Below, piece by piece: positions 3,670-60,735 of a DNA stretch of 64,000 nt. The translations under genes and the position numbers were made by a program. Each line of letters begins with the position of its first letter. The first letter of the stretch is position 1. The stretch spans positions 203,298,001 to 203,362,000 of the forward strand of contig OZ024741.1 in NCBI GenBank assembly GCA_964016885.1, in the 5' to 3' direction. The notes under the pieces are model-generated. The model did not search any database. It saw only the letters and a program-made list of their open reading frames with translations, and was not told where the DNA came from. The DNA is from Eledone cirrhosa (taxonomy: Eukaryota).

Positions 3670-4040
3670 TTTAAAAGTTAAAGTTAAAGTCTGTCTAGAG
3701 GCTCATGAAACCGAGACTTGTCTGTGTTTCACTGGCGTTAAGCGACTGAAAGCACTAGATTTCTTGGATAGGGCGCCGGTTCATTACAGCGTTAAAGTCT
3801 TTCCTAAATCCAGTGGCTCATCAGACCGAATTTTATCCTTTTTTTCAATGACTGAGAATATACTGGACATGACGACAGTACAACGAAGGTTTAACCCCCA
3901 GTTTCTGGTACTGCTACTGATATTCAGTTTCAAAAGAGATGACTGGAGCAAGGTGAAATCAAGAACATACGCGCCATCCGGACCAGGTATCGAACCCTTG
4001 ACATTGCGATCGTAAGCCTAACGCCCGTATCACTAAGTTA
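3670..4040 (-). mobile_element. Degenerate tRNA-derived SINE
   Basis: Reverse-complement B-box (tcgaaccc ~3990), tRNA-like head to 4040 and (aaagtt)n tail at ~3674. Confidence 0.5.
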
Positions 4041-4837
4041 TCAATGAAATAGATTGTTTACATAATCCATAAGAAGAAATATTCTTCTGTTTCAGCATCC
4101 AGTAGTAAGGTAAGTGTTTGTTGATGATGAATTAAGAAATCCTGAAACACAGGGGTGCTGATGTGGCTGACATGATCACAAATAAAATACACAGTGAGAT
4201 TATACGTATGGTCCTTATACATAGCATGTTATATATAGGTTTACATATACCTTTATTCTGAACCACGCTGTGTTAGTGCTACAGCCAATTCCCTTAACAC
4301 TACATTCAGTATATGATGTATATTTTTGTGTAATAATTTACATTATATATTGTTCGGTATGTTGGAAAGACTAATTGCGGATTAAGTGTGGTAGAGTCTG
4401 AGTGCGTTTTTCAGCCAGACTCACCATGCTCGCTGAAACTATCCTTCACATTTACATATATTGAGAAAAAGGGAGAGAGGTAGTGCATTATATCAAAAGC
4501 AATTTACGTGAGCCCATTACTTATGGCGGAGTCGTTGAGCCGCACTGTCTTGGGCATTTCAACATAACAGAGCCCTTTGCTCTCCATGTCAGAACACGTT
4601 TTCTTCCACAGATATAGAGAGAGTGAGAGAGAGAGAAAGCGAGAGAGAGGGAGAGAGAGAGGGAGAGAGAGAGGGAGAGAGAGAGGGAGAGAGAGAGATA
4701 GAGAGATGAAGAGGGAAGGGAATAAGAGATATAGAGACGGATAGGTAAATAGATAAATATATATATATACATATATATTATTAATGCAGATTAAAGGTTT
4801 AAGCAATAAATTACTGCTTTTACTCTAAGCGAGATCT

Positions 4838-4876
<39 letters not shown>

Positions 4877-4881
4877 TTATA

Positions 4882-4944
<63 letters not shown>

Positions 4945-4949
<5 letters not shown>

Positions 4950-5163
4950 CTTGATCACCTTGACCGACCAGTCTGTCGGGCGTCCATTCGGCACCGCTGG
5001 TCACAGCACGTCGTGCTGTTTTAGCCATAACGCCATCCCACTGGCTGGGCGGGCCGGTACCTCACAATCTCATTTCTACAGCTGAGTAAACTGGAGCAAC
5101 GTGAAATAAAGTGTCTTGCTCAAGGAAACAACACATCACCCGGTCCGAGAATTGAACTCACAA

Positions 5164-5165
<2 letters not shown>
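4945..5165 (-). mobile_element. tRNA-derived SINE (family with gtccttgagcaagacactttatttcacgttgctccag core)
   Basis: Reverse complement of the core at 5090-5125; B-box near 5150. Confidence 0.7.
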
Positions 5166-5224
<59 letters not shown>

Positions 5225-5225
<1 letters not shown>

Positions 5226-7952
5226 GTAAAAAATTGAACAGGAACAAAACAGAGAGGCAGTACGAACAAAGGTTTATTAGTTTCACGCTCTTGAGAGTGG
5301 GGTGGTGGTGGGGAACGACGTTTCGGGCATAAGCCCTTCTTCAGGTGAAAAGTGTGTGGGAAGAGAGTTCCAAGGGTGTGTAGGGGAGTGGTGGAGAGAC
5401 ATATAGAAAAAAGGGGGTGAGAGGAAAGGGTACAAATGAAATTAAATATAAAAGCATAATAAAAATAAAAATAAACATGACGTAAAACAGGTGGTGGAAG
5501 GGTGTGGGGCGTGTAGGGGTGGTGGCGGGTGGAGTGGGGAGAGGGAGGCGGGGTGTCCGAGCGGGGAGGGCTGAAGACGATGTGTGTGTAGGTGTGTGTG
5601 TGTGTGTGTATGTCCAAGTAAGAGTTGGGGGAAGAACGGGGTTGCATGTTCAGGAAGAGGTGTGTGTGGGGTGGGGTGTAGGTCGGTGTGTGTGCGTGTG
5701 TGGATGGGGAGGGGTCAGAGGGGTGGGGGGAGAGGATTCCGGAGGCTGAGTGTGTAAATATGTGGTGGTACGCACGTGTATGTGGTGTTTATGCGTGTTG
5801 TGGATGTAGGTGGCGTGTGGGAAAAAATGTTTTGAGTGTATGTCAGTGGGTGAATCCTTAAGGTAATTCCGTAGACGATGTGGTGGAATGCTGGGTAATA
5901 TCCTTGGGATGTGGTTGATTCTAGGGATCGATGTCCAATATGTGTAATCCGTGGTTGGGTTGGTCGGAAGAGGGGAGATGTGGGGTGCGCGCGCAACGTG
6001 AAGTGGTCAGAGGGTCAAGGCAGGAGGAGGGTTGTGTGTCTGTGTGTGCAGGGAGGTGGTCAGAGATAAGGGCATAGCAGCAGTCGGGGAGAATGGTAAG
6101 TGAAGAAAGTCGGTGTGTCAGTGTGTGCGGAGGTGCGGTGGACAGGGGAGAGGATGGGTAGGTGTGAAAGTTGGAGTGAGGAGGGTGTGTGTGTGTATTA
6201 GTAGAGGTGTTAGTGGGATGTGTGTGTGTGTGTGTGTCAGAAAGGGTGTGGCTGGAGCGGGGAGAGAAGGGTGTGGGGGCCGGTGGAGGGAGTGTAGTGT
6301 ACTGGTGTATGTGTGCGTGTTTGGATGAGTGAATGTGTGATGAAGGGGGTGTTAGTGGGTGTTAGTATACTGGTGGTGGGGAAAGGGTTGAATGCGGATG
6401 TGAGTGGAGGTCAGTGGTGGTAGGGTGTGTAGAGTCGGTGGTGTAAGTGGGTGTGTGTGTTCGTGTGCGTAGGGTTGGAGGGTGTTAGTGATGTTAGTTG
6501 CGGGGTGGTGGGGTGGATGTGTGGGGGTGAGGGTTAGTGGTGGTAGTAGGGTGTGTGTTTAGTGTGAGCGCGTGTATATATGTACCGGTGGGTGTGTGCG
6601 TGTGAAAAGGGGAGGGGGAGAAGAAGGGGGGGGGGGTGTTAGTATGTTAGTTGGGGAAGGGTGGTCGAGTGTGAGGTGGAGGTGTTAGTATTGTTAGTTG
6701 TGGGGTGGGCGGTGAAAGGGAAGGGTGTGTTAGTGGTGTTAGTGGGGATATGTGTGGGGGGAGGGGGACGGTCGAAGCCTAAAGGAATAAGGGTGGGGAG
6801 TTCAGGCCGGGGGGAGTGTGGGTCTGTAAGGTGAAGATGGTTCGTTGTTCGACCCTGAGGAGAGTGGCGGGTGTTCCGTGGCATTGGAGTAGGCCACAGA
6901 GTGTGAGGTGGTGCGCGGAATGTCCAGGGACACCAAAGTGGCGGGCGATGGGGGAACTACCACCGAGACGAATATCTCGGAGGTGTTTGGTAAACCGGTT
7001 CGCCAGGCGACGTCCAGTCTGTCCGACGTAGGTTGCACTGCACTCCGTGCAGCGGAATCCGTAGACTAGGTTGGAGGAGGTGCAGCGGAAGGCATGCCGG
7101 ACAGAGAGAGAGTGGCCGTTGGGACCCTGGAAGGTGGTGGTGTTGGTGATGTGGGGACAGGTGTTGCAACGGGGCCTGGAACAGGGAAGGGAACCGGAGG
7201 GGGGCGTGGGTTGGGAGTAGGGAGCTGTGGACGAGGAGGGTGCGGAGATTGCGTGCGCGTTTGAAGAAGGGGAGTGGTGGGGATGGGAAGATGTGGGAGG
7301 TGGAGGGGTCGGACTGGAGGCGTTGGACTGGAGGCGTCGGAAGAGGCGGAGGATGGTGCGGTGGAGGGGTATGGTGGAGGGGTGGTAGGTGATGGGGAAA
7401 GGGAGACGGTGGGTGGGTGTGCGGTGGCGTGGGGTGAGGGTGGTGGGGCGGTGGACAGCACGGGCGTGGGTGAGAGCGGTGTGGACGAGTGAGGGAGTAA
7501 CCTCTGCGGATGAAATGGATGACTAGGGAAAGGGCCTGGGAATCAAAGTCAGCATCTCGGCTACAGAGGCGGCGGATCCTGAGGAGTTGGGAGTAGGGAA
7601 TAGAGTGTTTAGTGTGTGTTGGGTGGGAAGAGGTGAAGTCGAGGTAGGAGTGGGAGTCGGTCGGTTTGAAGAAGGCGGAGGTGGCGAGGGAGTGATGGGA
7701 GGGGTCGAAGGCGACGGAGATGTCTAAGAAGTGGACGTGGGTGGTGGAGATAGAGGTGGTGAAGTGGAGGGAGGGGTGGATGGAGCAGAAGAAGGAGAGA
7801 ATGGAGTTGAGCTGTTCTCGGGTGAGGGTCGTGGCTCCGATACAGTCGTCGATGTAACGACCGTACAGTTCGGGCGTCGGGCCGGTGTATTGGGCAAAGA
7901 TTTGGGCCTCAACATGGCCAACAAAAAGGTTGGCATAGTTTGGGCCCATTCT
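5225..7952 (-). mobile_element. 5'-truncated, frameshifted Penelope-like element (Neptune-like): RT + Cys linker + GIY-YIG, long CA/C-rich 3' region, terminal HHR
   Basis: MGPNYANLFVG...YGRYIDDC...FLDI...FKPTDSHSYLDFTSSHP; PCSRPRCNTCPHI linker; NLVYGFRCTECSATYVGQTGRRLANRFTKH at ~6960-7075; flanked by (TA)n. Confidence 0.9.
5316..5346 (-). ncRNA. Minimal hammerhead ribozyme core in the PLE 3' pLTR
   Basis: Minus strand reads CTGAAGA-A-GGGC-TTAT-GCCC-GAAACGTC; stem I is weak. Confidence 0.7.
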
Positions 7953-8038
7953 TGTATATATATATATATATATATATATGGTACGGGAACAAAAACAGAG
8001 TACAAACAAAGGTTTATTAGTTTCACGCTCTTGAGAGT

Positions 8039-34970: not shown

Positions 34971-37264
34971 ATAAACTTGTTATAATGTCATAATAGTTCC
35001 TTTGTTCTTTTTCACTAATATATATATATATAAATTGAAACAAAATGAAAACGAAATTTCATTTCTCACTCTTAGTATGGCACTTACTTAAATGTAAGTA
35101 TGCATGTATACGTACATACATATATGTATACAGACGTACAGTAGCATGCACATATATATATATATATACATATATACATACATATGCATACAGGTACACA
35201 TACATATATGCACGTATCAGTTTAGCGGCGCTAACGTCGCTTTGTTCGTTTGTAAACAAACTGAACAGCCTGAATTTATGCCATACGGTGTTAAGGCAAC
35301 CACGTCACCTTTTTGTTCAACACTGACACAGGAACGATGTACTAGTTTCAAGCTTGTTAGCTATCATCAGCACCGTTTACCCATCTGCCAGATAGTTGAA
35401 CGTTCGAAAGTATATACTTTCCTTATGAAAATTAACGGCTGAGCAGCCTAATTTGCATATTGAGTGAGTTAAATCGGTCAGGCATACCGAAAACGATAAA
35501 TTGAAACAAAATGAAAACGAAATTTCATTTCTCACTCTTAGTATGGCACTTACTTAAATGTAAGTATGCATGTATACGTACATACATATATGTATACAGA
35601 CGTACAGTAGCATGCACATATATATATATATATATACATATATACATACATATGCATACAGGTACACATACATATATGCACGTATCAGTTTAGCGGCGCT
35701 AACGTCGCTTTGTTCGTTTGTAAACAAACTGAACAGCCTGAATTTATGCCATACGGTGTTAAGGCAACCACGTCATCTTTTTGTTCAACAATGACACAGG
35801 AACGATGTACTAGTTTCAAGCTTGTTAGCTATCATCAGCACCGTTTACCCATCTGCCAGATAGTTGAACGTTCGAAAGTATATACTTTCCTTATGAAAAT
35901 TAACGGCTGAGCAGCCTAATTTGCATATTGAGTGAGTTAAATCGGTCAGGCATACCGAAAACGATAAATTGAAACAAAATGAAAACGAAATTTCATTTCT
36001 CACTCTTAGTATGGCACTTACTTAAATGTAAGTATGCATGTATACGTACATACATATATGTATACAGACGTACAGTAGCATGCACATATATATATATATA
36101 TACATATATACATACATATGCATACAGGTACACATACATATATGCACGTATCAGTTTAGCGGCGCTAACGTCGCTTTGTTCGTTTGTAAACAAACTGAAC
36201 AGCCTGAATTTATGCCATACGGTGTTAAGGCAACCACGTCACCTTTTTGTTCAACACTGACACAGGAACGATGTACTAGTTTCAAGCTTGTTAGCTATCA
36301 TCAGCACCGTTTACCCATCTGCCAGATAGTTGAACGTTCGAAAGTATATACTTTCCTTATGAAAATTAACGGCTGAGCAGCCTAATTTGCATATTGAGTG
36401 AGTTAAATCGGTCAGGCATACCGAAAACGATAAATTGAAACAAAATGAAAACGAAATTTCATTTCTCACTCTTAGTATGGCACTTACTTAAATGTAAGTA
36501 TGCATGTATACGTACATACATATATGTATACAGACGTACAGTAGCATGCACATATATATATATATATACATATATACATACATATGCATACAGGTACACA
36601 TACATATATGCACGTATCAGTTTAGCGGCGCTAACGTCGCTTTGTTCGTTTGTAAACAAACTGAACAGCCTGAATTTATGCCATACGGTGTTAAGGCAAC
36701 CACGTCACCTTTTTGTTCAACACTGACACAGGAACGATGTACTAGTTTCAAGCTTGTTAGCTATCATCAGCACCGTTTACCCATCTGCCAGATAGTTGAA
36801 CGTTCGAAAGTATATACTTTCCTTATGAAAATTAACGGCTGAGCAGCCTAATTTGCATATTGAGTGAGTTAAATCGGTCAGGCATACCGAAAACGATAAA
36901 TTGAAACAAAATGAAAACGAAATTTCATTTCTCACTCTTAGTATGGCACTTAGTATGGCATAAACTCTTAGTATGGCATAAATTCAGGCTGTTCAGTTTG
37001 TTTACAAACGAACAAAGCGACGTTAGCGCCGCTAAACTGATACGTGCATATATGTATGTGTACCTGTATGCATATGTATGTATATATGTATATATATATA
37101 TATATGTGCATGCTACTGTACGTCTGTATACATATATGTATGTACGTATACATGCATACTTACATTTAAGTAAGTGCCATACTAAGAGTGAGAAATGAAA
37201 TTTCGTTTTCATTTTGTTTCAATTTATCGTTTTCGGTATGCCTGACCGATTTAACTCACTCAAT

Positions 37265-37312
37265 ATGCAAATTAGGCTGCTCAGCCGTTAATTTTCATAA
37301 GGAAAGTATATA
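37265..37312 (+). promoter_or_regulatory. Putative snRNA-type promoter module (octamer, PSE-like, TATA) in each unit
   Basis: ATGCAAAT 37265-37272, tcagccgttaattttcata, TATATA 37307-37312. Octamer and TATA are retained in all three subfamilies; function is inferred. Confidence 0.5.
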
Positions 37313-37345
37313 CTTTCGAACGTTCAACTATCTGGCAGATGGGTA

Positions 37346-37390
37346 AACGGTGCTGATGATAGCTAACAAGCTTGAAACTAGTACATCGTT
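37346..37390 (+). ncRNA. Minimal type I hammerhead ribozyme of the 466-bp unit (one per repeat)
   Basis: aacggtg-CTGATGA-t-AGCT-aaca-AGCT-t-GAAAC-TA-GTA^catcgtt: 7-bp stem I, 4-bp stem II, palindromic ACTAGT stem III. Confidence 0.9.
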
Positions 37391-39973
37391 CCTGTGTCAG
37401 TGTTGAACAAAAAGGTGACGTGGTTGCCTTAACACCGTATGGCATAAATTCAGGCTGTTCAGTTTGTTTACAAACGAACAAAGCGACGTTAGCGCCGCTA
37501 AACTGATACGTGCATATATGTATGTGTACCTGTATGCATATGTATGTATATATGTATATATATATATATATGTGCATGCTACTGTACGTCTGTATACATA
37601 TATGTATGTACGTATACATGCATACTTACATTTAAGTAAGTGCCATACTAAGAGTGAGAAATGAAATTTCGTTTTCATTTTGTTTCAATTTATCGTTTTC
37701 GGTATGCCTGACCGATTTAACTCACTCAATATGCAAATTAGGCTGCTCAGCCGTTAATTTTCATAAGGAAAGTATATACTTTCGAACGTTCAACTATCTG
37801 GCAGATGGGTAAACGGTGCTGATGATAGCTAACAAGCTTGAAACTAGTACATCGTTCCTGTGTCAGTGTTGAACAAAAAAAAAAAAAAAAAAAAAAAAGG
37901 TGACGTGGTTGCCTTAACACCGTATGGCATAAATTCAGGCTGTTCAGTTTGTTTACAAACGAACAAAGCGACGTTAGCGCCGCTAAACTGATACGTGCAT
38001 ATATGTATGTGTACCTGTATGCATATGTATGTATATATGTATATATATATATATATGTGCATGCTACTGTACGTCTGTATACATATATGTATGTACGTAT
38101 ACATGCATACTTACATTTAAGTAAGTGCCATACTAAGAGTGAGAAATGAAATTTCGTTTTCATTTTGTTTCAATTTATCGTTTTCGGTATGCCTGACCGA
38201 TTTAACTCACTCAATATGCAAATTAGGCTGCTCAGCCGTTAATTTTCATAAGGAAAGTATATACTTTCGAACGTTCAACTATCTGGCAGATGGGTAAACG
38301 GTGCTGATGATAGCTAACAAGCTTGAAACTAGTACATCGTTCCTGTGTCAGTGTTGAACAAAAAGGTGACGTGGTTGCCTTAACACCGTATGGCATAAAT
38401 TCAGGCTGTTCAGTTTGTTTACAAACGAACAAAGCGACGTTAGCGCCGCTAAACTGATACGTGCATATATGTATGTGTACCTGTATGCATATGTATGTAT
38501 ATATGTATATATATATATATATGTGCATGCTACTGTACGTCTGTATACATATATGTATGTACGTATACATGCATACTTACATTTAAGTAAGTGCCATACT
38601 AAGAGTGAGAAATGAAATTTCGTTTTCATTTTGTTTCAATTTATCGTTTTCGGTATGCCTGACCGATTTAACTCACTCAATATGCAAATTAGGCTGCTCA
38701 GCCGTTAATTTTCATAAGGAAAGTATATACTTTCGAACGTTCAACTATCTGGCAGATGGGTAAACGGTGCTGATGATAGCTAACAAGCTTGAAACTAGTA
38801 CATCGTTCCTGTGTCAGTGTTGAACAAAAAGGTGACGTGGTTGCCTTAACACCGTATGGCATAAATTCAGGCTGTTCAGTTTGTTTACAAACGAACAAAG
38901 CGACGTTAGCGCCGCTAAACTGATACGTGCATATATGTATGTGTACCTGTATGCATATGTATGTATATATGTATATATATATATATATGTGCATGCTACT
39001 GTACGTCTGTATACATATATGTATGTACGTATACATGCATACTTACATTTAAGTAAGTGCCATACTAAGAGTGAGAAATGAAATTTCGTTTTCATTTTGT
39101 TTCAATTTATCGTTTTCGGTATGCCTGACCGATTTAACTCACTCAATATGCAAATTAGGCTGCTCAGCCGTTAATTTTCATAAGGAAAGTATATACTTTC
39201 GAACGTTCAACTATCTGGCAGATGGGTAAACGGTGCTGATGATAGCTAACAAGCTTGAAACTAGTACATCGTTCCTGTGTCAGTGTTGAACAAAAAGGTG
39301 ACGTGGTTGCCTTAACACCGTATGGCATAAATTCAGGCTGTTCAGTTTGTTTACAAACGAACAAAGCGATGTTAGCGCCGCTAAACTGATACGTGCATAT
39401 ATGTATGTGTACCTGTATGCATATGTATGTATATATGTATATATATATATATATGTGCATGCTACTGTACGTCTGTATACATATATGTATGTACGTATAC
39501 ATGCATACTTACATTTAAGTAAGTGCCATACTAAGAGTGAGAAATGAAATTTCGTTTTCATTTTGTTTCAATTTATCGTTTTCGGTATGCCTGACCGATT
39601 TAACTCACTCAATATGCAAATTAGGCTGCTCAGCCGTTAATTTTCATAAGGAAAGTATATACTTTCGAACGTTCAACTATCTGGCAGATGGGTAAACGGT
39701 GCTGATGATAGCTAACAAGCTTGAAACTAGTACATCGTTCCTGTGTCAGTGTTGAACAAAAAGGTGACGTGGTTGCCTTAACACCGTATGGCATAAATTC
39801 AGGCTGTTCAGTTTGTTTACAAACGAACAAAGCGACGTTAGCGCCGCTAAACTGATACGTGCATATATGTATGTGTACCTGTATGCATATGTATGTATAT
39901 ATGTATATATATATATATATGTGCATGCTACTGTACGTCTGTATACATATATGTATGTACGTATACATGCATA

Positions 39974-40008
<35 letters not shown>

Positions 40009-43189: not shown

Positions 43190-44448
43190 GAAATAATGCA
43201 GTTGTTTCAATAATAATCGTTTAGTTTAAGTAATAGTTGAAAAATTCTGGAAGACTACAATTTTCAAATTTTCCCAATGTTTCTTCAGCTTTTAGTACTA
43301 ACATGGCTGTCATTTCAAGCAAAAAACGTGCAAATATCATCCTTCTTCATGAGGAAGGCTATTCCCGGTGTCAAATATTTGCACTATTGGGTGTATCTAA
43401 GACTGGCGTTCAAAAAACACTTGCCCATAATGCTACAACAGGCACATCTAACCCAAACAAGCGGCATGGAAGACCAGGCAAAATAAGTGTTCAAATATAT
43501 CACATGATATGCAAACTTGTAGTGTCAAATCCAACTGCTTTCAGCTCATATATCCAAGCCCAGCTTCTTCAGGACACAAACATATCATCTACCACCATCC
43601 AAAGACGCTGTTTTAAGGACTTTAACTTTCAGGCTTTTAAGCCAGCTGCCAAGCCTCAACTTTCAAATAAACGCATTAAGAACTGTTGTTCTGCAATATT
43701 TATCACTCGACTGAGGCTCAATGGAGTGAGGTAATGTTTAGTGATGTAACATTAATTAGACAATTTGCCCCTTATAATCACCATGTAAGAAGACCACTTG
43801 AACAACGTTATAATTCTCATTATGCCAAACCAACAGTTAAACATTCACAACAATTGATGGTCTTGAGATCAATAAGCATAAAGAGACGAACTGCACTGAC
43901 CATAATTCCAACAGGAAAGACTGTATATACCAACATATTTGGAAATCATACGAGAAAAGGTCCTATTGTGGATGGTTGCAGATATATCAACAAGATGGTG
44001 CTCATTGTTACAGGGCAAAAACTATTAACCAATATTTTTGAGAACCTGGTACTGAAGTGCTGGGACCTTGGCCAGGTCCAAGTACTGACTTAAACCCAAT
44101 TGAAAACTGTTAGAAATTGATGAAAGATAAGGTTGCCAAGCTAAATCCCAGCTCAAATACTGATTTACAACAAAACATTCTTACTGTATGGACACAACAC
44201 ATTACTCCTGAATATTGTGCCTCCTTGGTGAAATCAATGCCTCGCAGAACTGTTGCAGTAATTACTACTAAAGGTCATCAAACAAAGTACTAATGTGGAA
44301 TAGACAATTTGTAACAAAATGCTTTGTGTTGTATATTTGTAATAATATAGTATTTTTATCTAATAATTGTTCAAATTGTACGTTGTTCAGTATCAACCTA
44401 AGCTAATAAGATTATTGGGGTTGTCTCTGAATTATGTACAACACTGTG
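43190..44448 (+). mobile_element. Tc1-family transposon, pseudogenised transposase (~43303-44293)
   Basis: HTH...HGRPGK; WSEVMFSD; PTVKH; QQDGAH; WPGPSTDLNPIEN; frameshifts and stops; only a right TIR-like end is evident. Confidence 0.88.
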
Positions 44449-44569: not shown

Positions 44570-44907
44570 TATTGCTTTGGCCCCATTCGGTCGCGAATGA
44601 CCATGGTTTTGCACCTAGAAAGTTTCCCTCCGAGGCACAAGCCTGAGAAAAGGTTTGTTTTGTAGAAGACCAGCAGTCACCCATGCATACCAGCCTCCTC
44701 CCCTCTCCACGCCACTGATGTTGTCCAAAGGAAAGGCAATGACCCATACAGCTTGGCACCAGTGGCATCGCAACTCATTTCTACAGCTGAGTAAACTGGA
44801 GCAACGTGAAATAAAGTGTCTTCATCACCCGGTCCGAGCGAGAATCGAACTCACAACATCTCAATTGCAAGCTCAATGCTCTAACCACTTAGCTATGCGA
44901 CTTCACA

Positions 44908-54000: not shown

Positions 54001-54631
54001 GTATGATTCTTTACACAAAAAATAACTGCAACGCACATATACAGTACACATATTCAAACTTACATTCAGTCACACATATACGTCCACTCTCACATACCAC
54101 ACGGATATACGCATGTCACACACTAACTTTGATACTTTACACAACATATCTTTAAAAAACACACACGTATAACCATACACTTACACTCACACATAATATC
54201 GACACTAATACATACAATTCACTTTGCGTTCCATATTCGTTACTTTCTTTATATACATTTTTTTTTTTTCATTAAACTACCTTTTATTTTTGCATTTTCC
54301 TTTGCGATCCTGTCTAATTTTGTACTCCTGAAGAAGGGCTAAAACCGACACGTCGAACTTTCTTTCCCCTATTCCATATAAAACATATATAGTATCCTTG
54401 AACTATATATATATATATAAAGAAAATTTTGCTCTACATGGCTGATCTGCAAATCTGGCTGATCAGGGGAATCTGCTAATATGCAGATCTGACTGATCAG
54501 CCTGTCTGCTAATATGCAAATCAGTCACTGTGTATTTTTGAAAATAGCATATATTTTCACTAGCTCTGACAGTTTGGCAGGTGAACAGTGAGCTGTACTG
54601 ATGAAGGGTGATACGCAGAAACATCAGCTGA

Positions 54632-57089: not shown

Positions 57090-58981
57090 GCTTCATATGA
57101 TATGAAGCATACAATTGTTAATCGCTAGTTCTCAATATTCATACCCCATATCCCAATTTCTAACACTAATTTATACATTTTCCCATTTATTTTTATTATC
57201 TTTAATTGATGATTATGAAGTCTTAATTGTTGATTTTTAAGTTTTAATTTTTAGTTTTAATTCTAATTTTAATTTCCAATGTGAAATATTTATGTATGTA
57301 CCCTAGCATTAAGTAATATATTCACAAGGGCGGTGGATTGGCAGTATCACTAGAGGGTCGGATGCCATGCTTTGCAGTATAGGTTACGCCTCTTTACAGT
57401 CTGAGTTCAAATCCCGCCGAGGTTAACGATGCCTTTCATCCTTACGGGGTCGATAAAATAAAGTACCAGTAATACACTGGGATAATTGCTGGCCTTGTGC
57501 CATTAAATAGAAACAAGTTATATATTCACTTTGCGATCAACGGTCAATACATTGTCCCACCATAAACATGGGTAGTATTGACACATGTATCCTACCACCG
57601 GATTCTGGTGTCTACTAGACGCTGGACGAGCAGTAAGCTATAACGCTTTGGTTGAATTGAACTCTGTGACCGTGTCATTCCCACCGGCTGGGGTAGGAGG
57701 AGATTTAGATGCGGGAGTGGTAGTTAGATGGTCAACTTCCTCCACATTTGCGCCTGTACAAAGCTGTGGAGAGGAACGGACTGTAGCTACAACCTCATTT
57801 TTGTCCGTTCCCTTGTCTCTTATCTTTGGTATAGATTGCCTCAGAAACGTAATCCTATTACATAATGATGATGTCTGTTGTGATCACGTGACTGGTTACA
57901 TGATTGAACAATTACGTAGCCACGATCGTCATTGAAATATGTATCACAGCTTTGTTAATAAAGGACTCTGTTACATCTACAACAAACTTTGCATTTTCTT
58001 CATATATATGTGTATGTGATAATTGTAAATCGAACTTTAATTGTAGTACAACAAGTACTATTCGATTTATTTTATGTAATCACAAAGCACTCAATGGATC
58101 GAAAATTAAAGACAAACATTAAGTCCAGAGTTAAACACCGTAGTTATAAAATGTGACACCAAGAAAACCGACCGAAGGCACCAACTATACATACAGCAAA
58201 ATAACGACAGATACATAAAGGTTTTTCATACCTGGACCATCTCTGATTGATTAAAATCGATATAATCGATAAAATCTCAGATAGGTTTCTGGAACCCCTG
58301 GAAGTTATATAACAAGTTATATAATGCACAAGTAATACAAATTCGTCTTTATTAAAATTTCTTCAACTTTACAGATTCCACAGTATTTTTGTAGCAGTAT
58401 TTTTGTCTGTAGTCATGTAACCTTACTCAAAGAAGGAGATCAACTAGTCGAAATTTTTGCGGTTATTTATGTGAGTGTGTGTGTGTGTTTGAGACAGAGA
58501 GAGAAATAGGTATGTCTTTGAAGTAGATAGGGTTGTAAATATTGAGGTAACAAAATCCGATTGTGAATGAAAGTGGTGAGATTGAATGCAAAGAAGGGAA
58601 GAAGTGGAAGAAAATCAAGGACTAAAGATTATGTTACATTGGTAATATTTATTAGTTTCAGTATATTTCGAATGCACACCCATTAACAAAGAATGAGTTG
58701 GGAACCTCGAAGTATATTGGAGAGGAACTTTTCAGGCCTCTCTGTGGCTCGTATTGGAGTTATGACAGACTGAATTCTGCGCGTGCGCTTAACATGTGCA
58801 CGGGATCAACAGATTTTTGTATTTCTTCTCCCTTACTTCGCACTCTTTCTTTTAAATATCATCATCCGGCGGCCTCAGCCGAAATGGACTCAACAATTGA
58901 TCTCCACGTGGGTCTGTCGTTTATTGCCGTTGCCAAGTCCTGGATTTCAATATCAGAAGCTCTGGCGATGACATCGGGATA

Positions 58982-60735
58982 GGAGAGCTTGTTAAGACTG
59001 ATAAGATACATTACCAGAAGGGTATCTTTCAGGGTGATAGCTTGTCAGTGCTACTCTTCGTTCTCTCACTAAATCCACTATCTTACCTACTCAGGAAACA
59101 AGGTGGACAAAGAAGTGGGTCCAGAAGTATCTCCCATCTTTTCTTTGTTGATGACCTGAGGTTGTATGGACCAAATATCAATGATATCAAGAAACAATTG
59201 GACCTCATTACACAATTTTCAACAGACATCAAAACGAAATTTGGTGAGTCCAAGTGTGCATATTTGGCAGTAAAAAGTGGAAGAGCTGTGCCCTCCTCTA
59301 GAAATCTAGAGATGAACGGCCTGAAAATACAACCTCTACAGTCAGGTGACAACTTCAGATATCTTGGACAGGGTGAGAATGTCAGATATGATGGACCCAT
59401 AAATAAGGAGCGAACCAGAACTGAATACCTCAGAAGAGGAAAGAAAATATGGTCATCAGAACTGTCAGCGTACAACAAATACATTGCCCACAATACTTAT
59501 GCTGTGCCAATTCTAACGCCAACATTTGGCCTGCTGAACTGGTCATTGCAAGAACTAAGTGAGATGGATGTTAGAACTCGCAAACTACTCAGTGTTACTG
59601 GGAACTTTAACATCAATGGTGATGTGGATAGGCTATACTTCTCACGCAAGGAAGGTGGCCGGGGTCTCAAATCCATATTAACATCATATGAAACCCGGAT
59701 AGTAACACTGAAGCAACATCTTCAACAGAGGAAAAAGGTTGGCAACCATCTTGCCCAGGTTTATGACCATGAAGAAAAAAATATCATTATGATAGCACCT
59801 GATCTGGAGGAGAGATATGGAATAAAGCCTGATATAAGTCTCTCACCCAGAGAAATCGGAAGATCCTATTCAATGTTCAAACAAGATGAAAAAATTGACC
59901 AATTTACAGAAAAAGTTGTGCACGGATACTTGAGACGTAAAACACAGACCATAGAGGGGATAAACCACTCAAAAAGCCTGGCATGGAGTTCCGACAAGTT
60001 TATGACATCACACCTTGAGGGAACAAGAACTCCCAACCAAATATCTGCTGCACAAAAGAGGAGGGCCATCAGCTGACAATAAATGCAGGCTATGTAAAAC
60101 AAAGATCGAAGATGTAAGCCACATTGTTGCCAGCTACGAAAGAATGTCATCTCGCTACTACCTCCCCATGAGACACGATGGGATAGCTAGAACCATCTGG
60201 AACGCACTTCGGAAAACAAAATTGAAAACAAACGAGGAAGAGTATATTGAGACAGATGGCACTAAGGAATACTGGTGGAACCTGAAAATAAAAACTGCCA
60301 CTAAATTAAAGCACAACCGGCCTGATATTGTTGTTTGGGACCACACATTGAAAACGTGTTCTGTTGTGGAGATCAGCTGCCCACTTGATGTAAACGTTGT
60401 CAGAAAATTACAGAAGAAGGAGGACATCTACGGACCATTGATGAGGAGTTTACAAATCCAGTATCCAAGATACACCTTTAGCTTCATACCCATCATTATT
60501 GGAGCTACGGGTTATATACCAACCCGCTTGGACCAATGTATAACTGAACTTGGATTTGCGGACAAAGAGCGCAGCTTTAATTCATAGTCTACAAATGGCT
60601 GCGATAGCTGGCACCTTCAAAATTTGCAAAACATTCTTGCGATTCAAGGGATGACAATTTCTTTTCTTTTACAACCTTGCCACCAGGAAGGTGGCCGGTC
60701 AAACAAATATACTCGAAATTAAGAGAAAGAGATAA
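58982..60735 (+). mobile_element. 5'-truncated R4/Dong-clade non-LTR retrotransposon (RT + CCHC + RLE), frameshifted
   Basis: GIFQGDSLSVLLFVLSLNPLS; ISHLFFVDDLRLY; DRLYFSRKEGGRGL; CRLC...HI...RHD; NRPDIVVWD...VEISCP. Confidence 0.92.

What the first reader, a model, noticed from the sequence alone, without database searches (positions are those of the whole stretch)
37265..37359. Internal snRNA-type promoter module just upstream of the ribozyme
Seen: ATGCAAAT, a PSE-like tcagccgttaat..cata segment and TATATA precede CTGATGA (88 bp from the octamer). From there the HHR strand has no T4 run for ~350 nt until the T-rich block at ~37671, despite being AT-rich. Established: U6/H1-type Pol III promoters use octamer + PSE + TATA and terminate at oligo-T; newt satellite 2 uses snRNA-type elements. 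Inference: each unit is a self-promoting cassette, with read-through supplying the dimers needed for cleavage and circularisation.
Basis: partly seen in the sequence, partly recalled or inferred. Interest (0 to 1): 0.72.

Follow-up and report, generated by a model that had tools for sequence, protein, structure and literature searches.

The report
Retrozymes borrow host snRNA promoter parts
Each unit of this self-cutting RNA repeat carries, just before its ribozyme, a block matching the promoter elements of the host's own small nuclear RNA genes, so the repeat likely drives its own transcription, probably by RNA polymerase II rather than III; the layout was reported before for a newt repeat and transcription was not tested here.

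Summary
The 466-bp unit is a type I hammerhead repeat (non-LTR retrozyme) in Penelope-like inverted arrays. Its block TATGCAAATTAGG matches the element 76-79 nt upstream of 7 host Pol III genes (U6, U6atac, MRP, tRNA-Sec) at about 1e-6 per position. The block is as conserved as the ribozyme and keeps a fixed 42-nt distance to the TATA box (30 of 31 copies). Seven hammerhead families in this genome carry the block, and six share the geometry although their flanks mostly do not align. The Pol III reading is doubtful. The host's Pol III distance is 46-48 nt. The TCAG core sits 26 nt before the TATA box, as in host U1/U2/U4/U5 (25-29), not as in 7SK and RNase P (32-33). T4-T12 runs lie inside every unit, where Pol III would stop before the next ribozyme. 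The T4-free stretch is what chance gives (P=0.6). Best reading: an internal snRNA-class promoter, likely Pol II, that reads through the array. No RNA data could be examined. This scan noted the same system twice before on other DNA of this genome.

The parts
37264..37276 (+). Octamer block TATGCAAATTAGG, matching the element at -76 to -79 of host U6, U6atac, MRP and tRNA-Sec genes
   Evidence: 19.8 bits; 15 letters identical to the upstream of tRNA-Sec locus L066
37281..37285 (+). TCAGC, a weak match to the YCAGY core at -55 to -58 of host U1/U2/U4/U5 genes; 16 nt after the octamer start and 26 nt before the TATA box
   Evidence: 4.9 bits; P=0.007 at this spacing from a TATA-like site
37264..37299 (+). 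Imperfect inverted repeat pairing the octamer block with the 3' half of the PSE-like segment (predicted hairpin in the RNA)
   Evidence: 92% of cells paired, no pair changed on both sides within the family
37306..37312 (+). TATA box GTATATA inside a 16-bp palindrome (37302-37317)
   Evidence: 10.4 bits, the top score of the host Pol III TATA profile
37337..37338 (+). Predicted transcription start (TATA +30, core +56/57); not observed
   Evidence: inference from host geometry
37346..37390 (+). Type I hammerhead ribozyme; core CTGATGA 37353-37359, GAAA 37374-37377, predicted cleavage between 37383 and 37384
   Evidence: sequence, descriptor scan, pair counts
37672..37699 (+). T-rich block with three T4 runs (T5-T12 in other copies), lying before the next unit's module; also the fixed 3' end (tail) of many arrays
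36971..39983 (+). Tandem array of the 466-bp unit, about 6.4 copies, six modules and six ribozymes
35030..36952 (-). Inverted tandem array of the same unit, about 4.1 copies, ending at the T-rich tail in (AT)n
54440..54630 (+). Truncated copy of hammerhead family B, with octamer and TCAGT blocks before CTGATGA (54598)

Best explanation
The segment is a conserved block of host snRNA-class promoter elements inside each unit of a hammerhead repeat, and it likely acts as an internal promoter, probably for RNA polymerase II, that would start near 37337 and read through the array. Shown: the match to host elements, the fixed spacing, the conservation, the recurrence in other hammerhead families, and the ribozyme fold. 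Inferred: a POU-type factor binds the octamer block and helps SNAPc and TBP onto the TCAG core and TATA box; Pol II ignores the T runs and meets no host-type 3' box; successive ribozymes cut out 466-nt monomers, which would be circularised as shown for mussel and axolotl retrozymes; a Penelope-like element copies them into (TA)n. Because the promoter of unit n+1 lies inside the transcript of unit n, each new insertion would carry its own promoter.
For: (1) The 13-nt block scores 19.8 bits on a profile of 7 host Pol III promoters, about 1e-6 per position; none of 15 other promoters tested has it within -200..-40 (best 7.6 bits). (2) In 1.4 Mb of evenly picked genome stretches, 22 of 51 sites scoring 14 bits or more have a hammerhead-like core 70-110 nt downstream, against 0.4% of all positions; about 10 of the other 29 are decayed, truncated or deleted copies of such families. 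(3) Six of seven octamer-bearing families have a TATA-like box 40-45 nt after the octamer start, and five have YCA(G/C)Y at exactly +16; the sixth differs by one letter. Two of these families (L150, L051) turned up only after the geometry had been set down. Outside the block, A, B and C mostly do not align better than shuffles. (4) In family A the octamer-TATA distance is 42 in 30 of 31 copies while TATA-to-ribozyme varies (octamer to core 77-88). Only 3 of 28 module columns carry shared variants, against 71 of 224 in the other non-ribozyme parts tested, Fisher P=0.026. (5) Core-to-TATA is 26 in A and 24-29 in the others, as in 13 of 14 host U1/U2/U4/U5 promoters (25-29), against 32-33 in 7SK and RNase P, which end in T runs. 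(6) T runs lie inside every unit and the host 3'-box-like motif CAGA(C/A)T is absent from the A unit. (7) Newt satellite 2 is cited as using an snRNA promoter with Pol II (PMC2220036, passage).
Against: No transcript, start site or factor binding was seen. The layout fits no host class exactly: the octamer block occurs only in Pol III genes of this host, and the AATTA element found 32-34 nt before the core in 14 of 14 Pol II promoters is weak or missing (P=0.02 in young A, 0.13 in old A, 0.04-0.99 in the others). The TCAG core is weak in A (4.9 bits) and not significant in C and D (P=0.16, 0.12). One octamer-bearing family (L232) does not fit the geometry. The block also forms a predicted RNA hairpin in A, C and D, which could add to its conservation. 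The families may share ancestry (A and D align), so they are not fully independent. Fifteen of 19 hammerhead clusters lack the block, so it is not needed by all such repeats. Polymerase classes of host genes are taken from general knowledge and from their 3' T runs, not tested.
Confidence: 0.55

Rival explanations
1. The module is a compact Pol III type-3 promoter. Most transcripts would end at the T-rich block and rare read-through would supply dimers.
For: The octamer block is found in 7 of 8 host type-3 promoters with the U6 layout or 7SK, and in no Pol II snRNA promoter tested; the TATA box has the top score of the host Pol III profile. Young copies have only T4 runs, which are weak terminators (strength recalled).
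Against: Spacing is 42 against 46-48, with no TATA at 46-48 in any of four families. The CCT block at +15..+18 of 6 of 7 host genes is missing in A, B and D. The older subfamily spread with a shared T6 inside the unit. The T4-free stretch is chance.
Confidence: 0.18
2. The module is an ordinary octamer-plus-TATA Pol II promoter that needs no SNAPc; the TCAG match is incidental.
For: Octamer and TATA are the strong, invariant parts; the core is weak in A and not significant in C and D; the upstream AATTA element is missing.
Against: The match runs past the octamer into TAGG as in host type-3 genes; a YCA(G/C)Y word sits at +16 in five families and is a full host core in B (P=0.0005), where the octamer-plus-core block is triplicated.
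Confidence: 0.14
3. The segment is kept for RNA reasons (a hairpin needed for folding of the circle or for recognition by the reverse transcriptase), and the repeats are transcribed only by read-through from host promoters.
For: Octamer block and PSE-like segment pair in the predicted fold, and the TATA box lies in a palindrome; the circular monomer folds far better than shuffles (z about -7.9, 60 shuffles); in family C a change in the block is matched in the partner arm.
Against: The octamer arm stays fixed while its partner arm changes; family B keeps the block without that hairpin; pairing does not explain identity with the host's untranscribed upstream element or the fixed distance to a TATA box.
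Confidence: 0.13

Closest known systems
Non-LTR retrozymes of animals (Cervera and de la Pena 2020, PMC7229834; parts 3 and 4 of 6 and search passages read)
   Same: Short tandem repeats of low GC with one type I hammerhead per unit, tens of thousands of copies, a highly self-paired predicted circle; a U-U at the base of helix II as in axolotl HHR_Amex2.
   Different: The unit is 466 bp, above the 170-400 nt given there. The word 'promoter' occurs in that text only for T7 constructs, so no internal promoter is described. Circles and cleavage were shown there and not here.
Newt satellite 2 (Coats, Zhang and Epstein 1994; not held; known only from a citing passage in PMC2220036)
   Same: A hammerhead satellite repeat with an internal snRNA-type promoter, transcribed by Pol II according to the citing passage.
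   Different: Here the elements are those of an invertebrate host, packed into about 50 bp with a TATA box, and shared by at least six families. The newt elements and spacing could not be compared.
[quoted passage not shown]
   Same: The 13-nt octamer block and a G-TATA box in the same order and orientation.
   Different: Spacing 42 against 46-48; no CCT block at +15; the unit lies inside the transcript of the previous unit, and T runs would cut off multimers.
Host U1/U2/U4/U5 promoters
   Same: A YCAGY-like core 25-29 nt before a TATA-like box.
   Different: The core is weak in family A, the AATTA element is weak or missing, an octamer block stands 16 nt before the core, and no 3'-box-like motif follows.
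Penelope-like element pseudo-LTRs (PMC8557442 passages; PMC11167929 part 1 of 4; bioRxiv 10.64898/2026.07.22.740005 parts 1-3 of 5)
   Same: Tandem and inverted arrangement, variable 5' ends, a tail at one end only, insertion in (TA)n, a type I hammerhead.
   Different: No coding region is attached, and the partner element was not searched for. The Penelope promoter described there overlaps a 5'-UTR intron.
Schistosome hammerhead satellite (Ferbeyre 1998; not held; citing passage)
   Same: A hammerhead repeat with its own internal promoter.
   Different: That promoter is cited as Pol III; the A/B-box detail is recalled, not read. No such boxes were tested for here.

Membership tests
Non-LTR retrozyme | Tandem repeat with a type I hammerhead in each unit | tested here: met
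Non-LTR retrozyme | Short unit, low GC, no coding capacity, high copy number | tested here: met
   466 bp, 36% GC; 22 units in 12 of 140 sampled 10-kb stretches, roughly 47,000 per 3 Gb; slightly longer than the published range
Non-LTR retrozyme | Highly self-paired predicted circular monomer | tested here: met
   67% paired, z about -7.9 against 60 shuffles; part of this comes from the (TA)-rich stretch
Non-LTR retrozyme | Self-cleavage and circular RNA in vivo | not testable with these tools
   needs in vitro transcription and RNA data
Penelope-mobilised element | Inverted/tandem arrays, fixed tailed 3' end, (TA)n targets | tested here: met
Penelope-mobilised element | An autonomous partner sharing the pseudo-LTR | not tested
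   no search for a partner was run
Host type-3 Pol III promoter (U6 layout) | Octamer block TATG(C/G)(A/T)AAT(T/G)AG | tested here: met
   19.8 bits
Host type-3 Pol III promoter (U6 layout) | TATA box 46-48 nt after the octamer start | tested here: not met
   42 nt in 30 of 31 copies; no TATA at 46-48
Host type-3 Pol III promoter (7SK/RNase P layout) | TCAGT core 32-33 nt before the TATA box | tested here: not met
   26 nt in family A
Host Pol II snRNA promoter | YCAGY core 25-29 nt before a TATA-like box | tested here: met
   TCAGC at 26 nt, weak (4.9 bits, P=0.007); full match in family B
Host Pol II snRNA promoter | AATTA element 32-34 nt before the core | tested here: inconclusive
   4.4 bits in young A (P=0.02), 0.3 in old A, against 5.3-11.0 in host genes
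Host Pol II snRNA promoter | 3'-box-like motif after the RNA | tested here: not met
   CAGA(C/A)T, read from host U1/U2 3' flanks, is absent from the unit; fits read-through
snRNA-class promoter (any) | SNAPc binding and a start about 30 nt after the TATA box | not testable with these tools
   needs ChIP and 5' end mapping

The most novel reading that the evidence does not exclude
A whole group of invertebrate retrozymes has built a hybrid promoter that no host gene tested uses: the octamer block of the Pol III snRNA genes joined to the core-TATA spacing of the Pol II snRNA genes, with no 3' box. It taps the constitutive SNAPc machinery and escapes both the oligo(T) and the 3'-box stop, giving the multimers that ribozymes turn into circles. 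With the newt case this would point to snRNA-promoter capture as a recurrent reason why animal retrozymes are expressed in all tissues.
Probability: 0.3. Interest if true: 0.72.

Novelty: new variant of a known kind. Interest (0 to 1): 0.5.

Why it matters
Animal retrozymes are reported to be heavily transcribed in all tissues examined (PMC7229834), yet the retrozyme texts read here name no promoter for them apart from the cited newt and schistosome cases. This gives a defined 50-bp candidate, a predicted start site and a spacing rule that separates Pol II from Pol III, all testable with one reporter series. It also outlines three promoter layouts for this host's small RNA genes, which is useful for building guide-RNA cassettes in this animal group.

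Tried and rejected
RNA evidence: no RNA holder listed (6 runs, kind not on record). Laying contigs of 4 of the 6 runs cannot show starts; one run (X2, 5650 contigs laid) listed no variant at 10% or more in 37263-37292 or 37306-37317, but it may be the same species and is not counted as independent. A DNA search of the genome with the unit returned nothing, because very common words are skipped. Rfam has no hammerhead call at gathering score in the window. The T4-free stretch was rejected as evidence. RNase P (L045) was first put among the Pol II promoters and stayed in the core profile; its 32-nt spacing, missing AATTA and 3' T run later placed it with 7SK. SRP genes (8 loci) show no octamer block and were left out. 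Dropped before the host counts: U6 copies with the block displaced to -270 (6 of 15 loci), two U6 loci without a proximal block (L014, L015), near-identical array copies, 5 of 6 U6atac loci and 4 of 6 tRNA-Sec hits that lack upstream elements. One search used a misregistered structure string and was redone. Two primary papers were not held. Literature searches listed no paper describing this module or mollusc snRNA promoter elements; the library lacks most subscription journals, and no supplements were opened, so repeat libraries or supplements may already hold these families. PMC13652810 and PMC6962438 (passages) added nothing beyond 235 Rfam hammerheads in a squid genome; PMC5460494 and PMC9652321 (passages) gave background only.

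Full report
The setting. The window lies in a 3-Gb animal genome rich in A+T and microsatellites. The finding sits in a 466-bp unit repeated about 6.4 times on the + strand (36971-39983) and 4.1 times on the - strand (35030-36952), the two arrays pointing outwards. About ten such insertions, 74-100% identical, lie in the window. In 140 evenly picked 10-kb stretches there were 22 units in 12 stretches, roughly 47,000 per genome; the picks favour the large contigs. Arrays have variable 5' ends, and their 3' ends fall at one of two fixed places followed by (TA)n, one about 60 nt beyond the other. This matches the tandem/inverted layout, one-sided tail and (TA)n targets described for Penelope-like elements (PMC8557442, passages).

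The ribozyme. The unit holds a type I hammerhead at 37346-37390 with a short palindromic helix III and predicted cleavage after A37383. Among 8 copies, stems II and III are fully paired and stem I has one pair changed on both sides. The circular monomer folds much better than shuffles. This is a non-LTR retrozyme by every feature that could be tested (PMC7229834).

The observation. The octamer, PSE-like segment, TATATA and 88-nt distance are as stated. Alone, the motifs are weak: each appears in about 4% of shuffles, and the T4-free stretch in 60%.

Calibration against the host. I fetched the host's U6, U1, U2, U6atac, MRP, RNase P, tRNA-Sec, SRP, U5, U4 and 7SK genes. Seven promoters (three U6 lineages, U6atac, MRP, two tRNA-Sec) share TATG(C/G)(A/T)AAT(T/G)AG at -76 to -79 and a TATA box 46-48 nt later. 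Fourteen U1/U2/U4/U5 promoters, one per lineage, lack it; they have AATTA at about -89, a YCAGY core at -55 to -58 and, in 13 of 14, a TATA-like box 25-29 nt after the core. 7SK (one hit, E=1e-7) and RNase P have the TCAGT core 32-33 nt before the TATA box and end in T runs. SRP genes have none of these. The repeat's block scores 19.8 bits on the first profile, about 1e-6 per position, and shares 15 letters with one tRNA-Sec upstream region. Its TATA box has the top score, but lies 42 nt after the octamer start. Its TCAGC lies 26 nt before the TATA box and is a weak match to the core (4.9 bits, P=0.007 at that spacing). The module thus joins the octamer block of one class to the core spacing of another and fits no host class exactly.

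Conservation within the family. In 32 distinct copies, 3 of 28 module columns carry variants shared by three or more copies, compared with 5 of 46 in the ribozyme and 71 of 224 in the other parts tested (P=0.026). Octamer-to-TATA is 42 in 30 of 31 copies; the exception has lost the TATA box. Downstream of the TATA box an 8-nt deletion marks a whole subfamily.

Recurrence in other families. A descriptor scan gave 143 hammerhead hits in 19 clusters; four clusters carry the block 70-105 nt upstream (34 of 41, 2 of 3, 2 of 2, 2 of 2) and 15 do not, five of these being single hits that may be chance. Searching from the other side, 22 of 51 strong octamer blocks in 1.4 Mb have a hammerhead-like core 70-110 nt downstream, against 0.4% of positions. 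This added three families. Two of them (L150, L051; both decayed ribozymes) have the TATA-like box at +42/+43 and CCAGC or TCTGT at +16; the third (L232) does not fit. Across six families the TATA-like box lies at +40 to +45, and none of the four scored has one at 46-48. Families A, B and C mostly do not align outside the block, while A and D are related, so the block has outlasted its surroundings, though shared ancestry limits independence. The core is a full host match in B (P=0.0005) and not significant in C or D. The AATTA element is weak or missing throughout.

Which polymerase. New insertions contain whole units with the module, so the copied RNA must run from one unit through the next (inference). 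The T-rich block lies in that path: 24 of 24 copies have T4 or more there, and 15 of 24 have T5-T12, with T6 shared in the older subfamily. Pol III stops at such runs (established knowledge); Pol II does not, and the unit lacks the 3'-box-like motif of host U1/U2 genes. Core-to-TATA spacing also sides with Pol II; spacing as a determinant of polymerase choice is known from plants (PMC9652321, passage). Against this, the octamer block is confined to Pol III genes in this host. I put an internal promoter of some kind at about 0.87 and the Pol II snRNA-class form at 0.55.

The RNA-level rival. The block pairs with the 3' half of the PSE-like segment and the TATA box sits in a palindrome; families C and D have similar hairpins with different partner arms. 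The octamer arm stays constant while the partner arm varies, and family B keeps the block without that hairpin, so pairing looks secondary, but it may contribute.

What was not shown. There is no transcript, start site, cleavage or binding evidence; the run search is told under Tried and rejected. No autonomous partner was sought.

Novelty. Retrozymes, their Penelope link (bioRxiv 10.64898/2026.07.22.740005, parts 1-3) and an snRNA-type promoter in one hammerhead satellite are known. Eight searches of the held library listed no description of this module. Two earlier notes of this scan on other DNA of the same genome (e1-8804837, e1-8829583) reach the same reading; I saw them after my tests and do not count them as evidence. 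What this work adds is the three-class host calibration, the spacing argument for Pol II, the enrichment test and the rejection of the T4 argument. Verdict: a real, conserved, probably functional internal promoter; new variant of a known kind; interest 0.5.

Noticed in passing
L001-L003, L038, L044, L045, L066, L067, L202, L016-L030, L100-L113 (upstream 120 nt): The host's small RNA genes show three promoter layouts: octamer block at -77 plus TATA (U6, U6atac, MRP, tRNA-Sec); TCAGT 32-33 nt before TATA (7SK, RNase P); AATTA at -89, YCAGY at -56 and a TATA-like box at -30 (U1, U2, U4, U5). Pol II snRNA genes with TATA-like boxes differ from the vertebrate rule.
   Followed up: yes
window 54440-54630; L175:2400-3013; L048:3236-3404: Hammerhead family B (unit about 449 bp) carries up to three tandem copies of the octamer-plus-TCAG block, period about 33 nt.
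   Followed up: partly
all loci held: The genome is very rich in type I hammerhead-like motifs: 73 descriptor hits in 1 Mb of sampled DNA, 19 clusters in all; 15 clusters lack the octamer block and their promoters are unexplained.
   Followed up: partly
L232 minus strand, octamer at 7553 of the reverse complement: A hammerhead family with the octamer block 95 nt upstream but no core at +16 and the TATA-like box near +62; it does not fit the shared geometry.
   Followed up: no
window 37875-37898: One unit of the array has A24 where the others have A5, just after the long stem I extension; slippage or a copied oligo(A) tail.
   Followed up: no
L007, L008, L010-L013: Six of 11 fetched copies of the U6 tandem array have about 190 bp inserted at the TATA box, moving the octamer block to -270.
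   Followed up: no
L042 upstream of 1500: A U6atac-like copy without its own promoter abuts a family B element on the opposite strand.
   Followed up: no
window 58901-60587 (+): Broken reverse transcriptase frames (RVT_1 E=5e-8, zf-RVT weak), LINE-like, not linked to the arrays.
   Followed up: partly
window 43237-43734 (+): Fragment of a Tc1/mariner-type transposase (PAX, HTH_Tnp_Tc3_2).
   Followed up: partly
window 44830-44902 (-): tRNA-like match at 36 bits, possibly a SINE head.
   Followed up: no
window 4001-8000: G-rich stretch with GC skew up to 0.64 and no Pfam match in its longest frame; unexplained.
   Followed up: no
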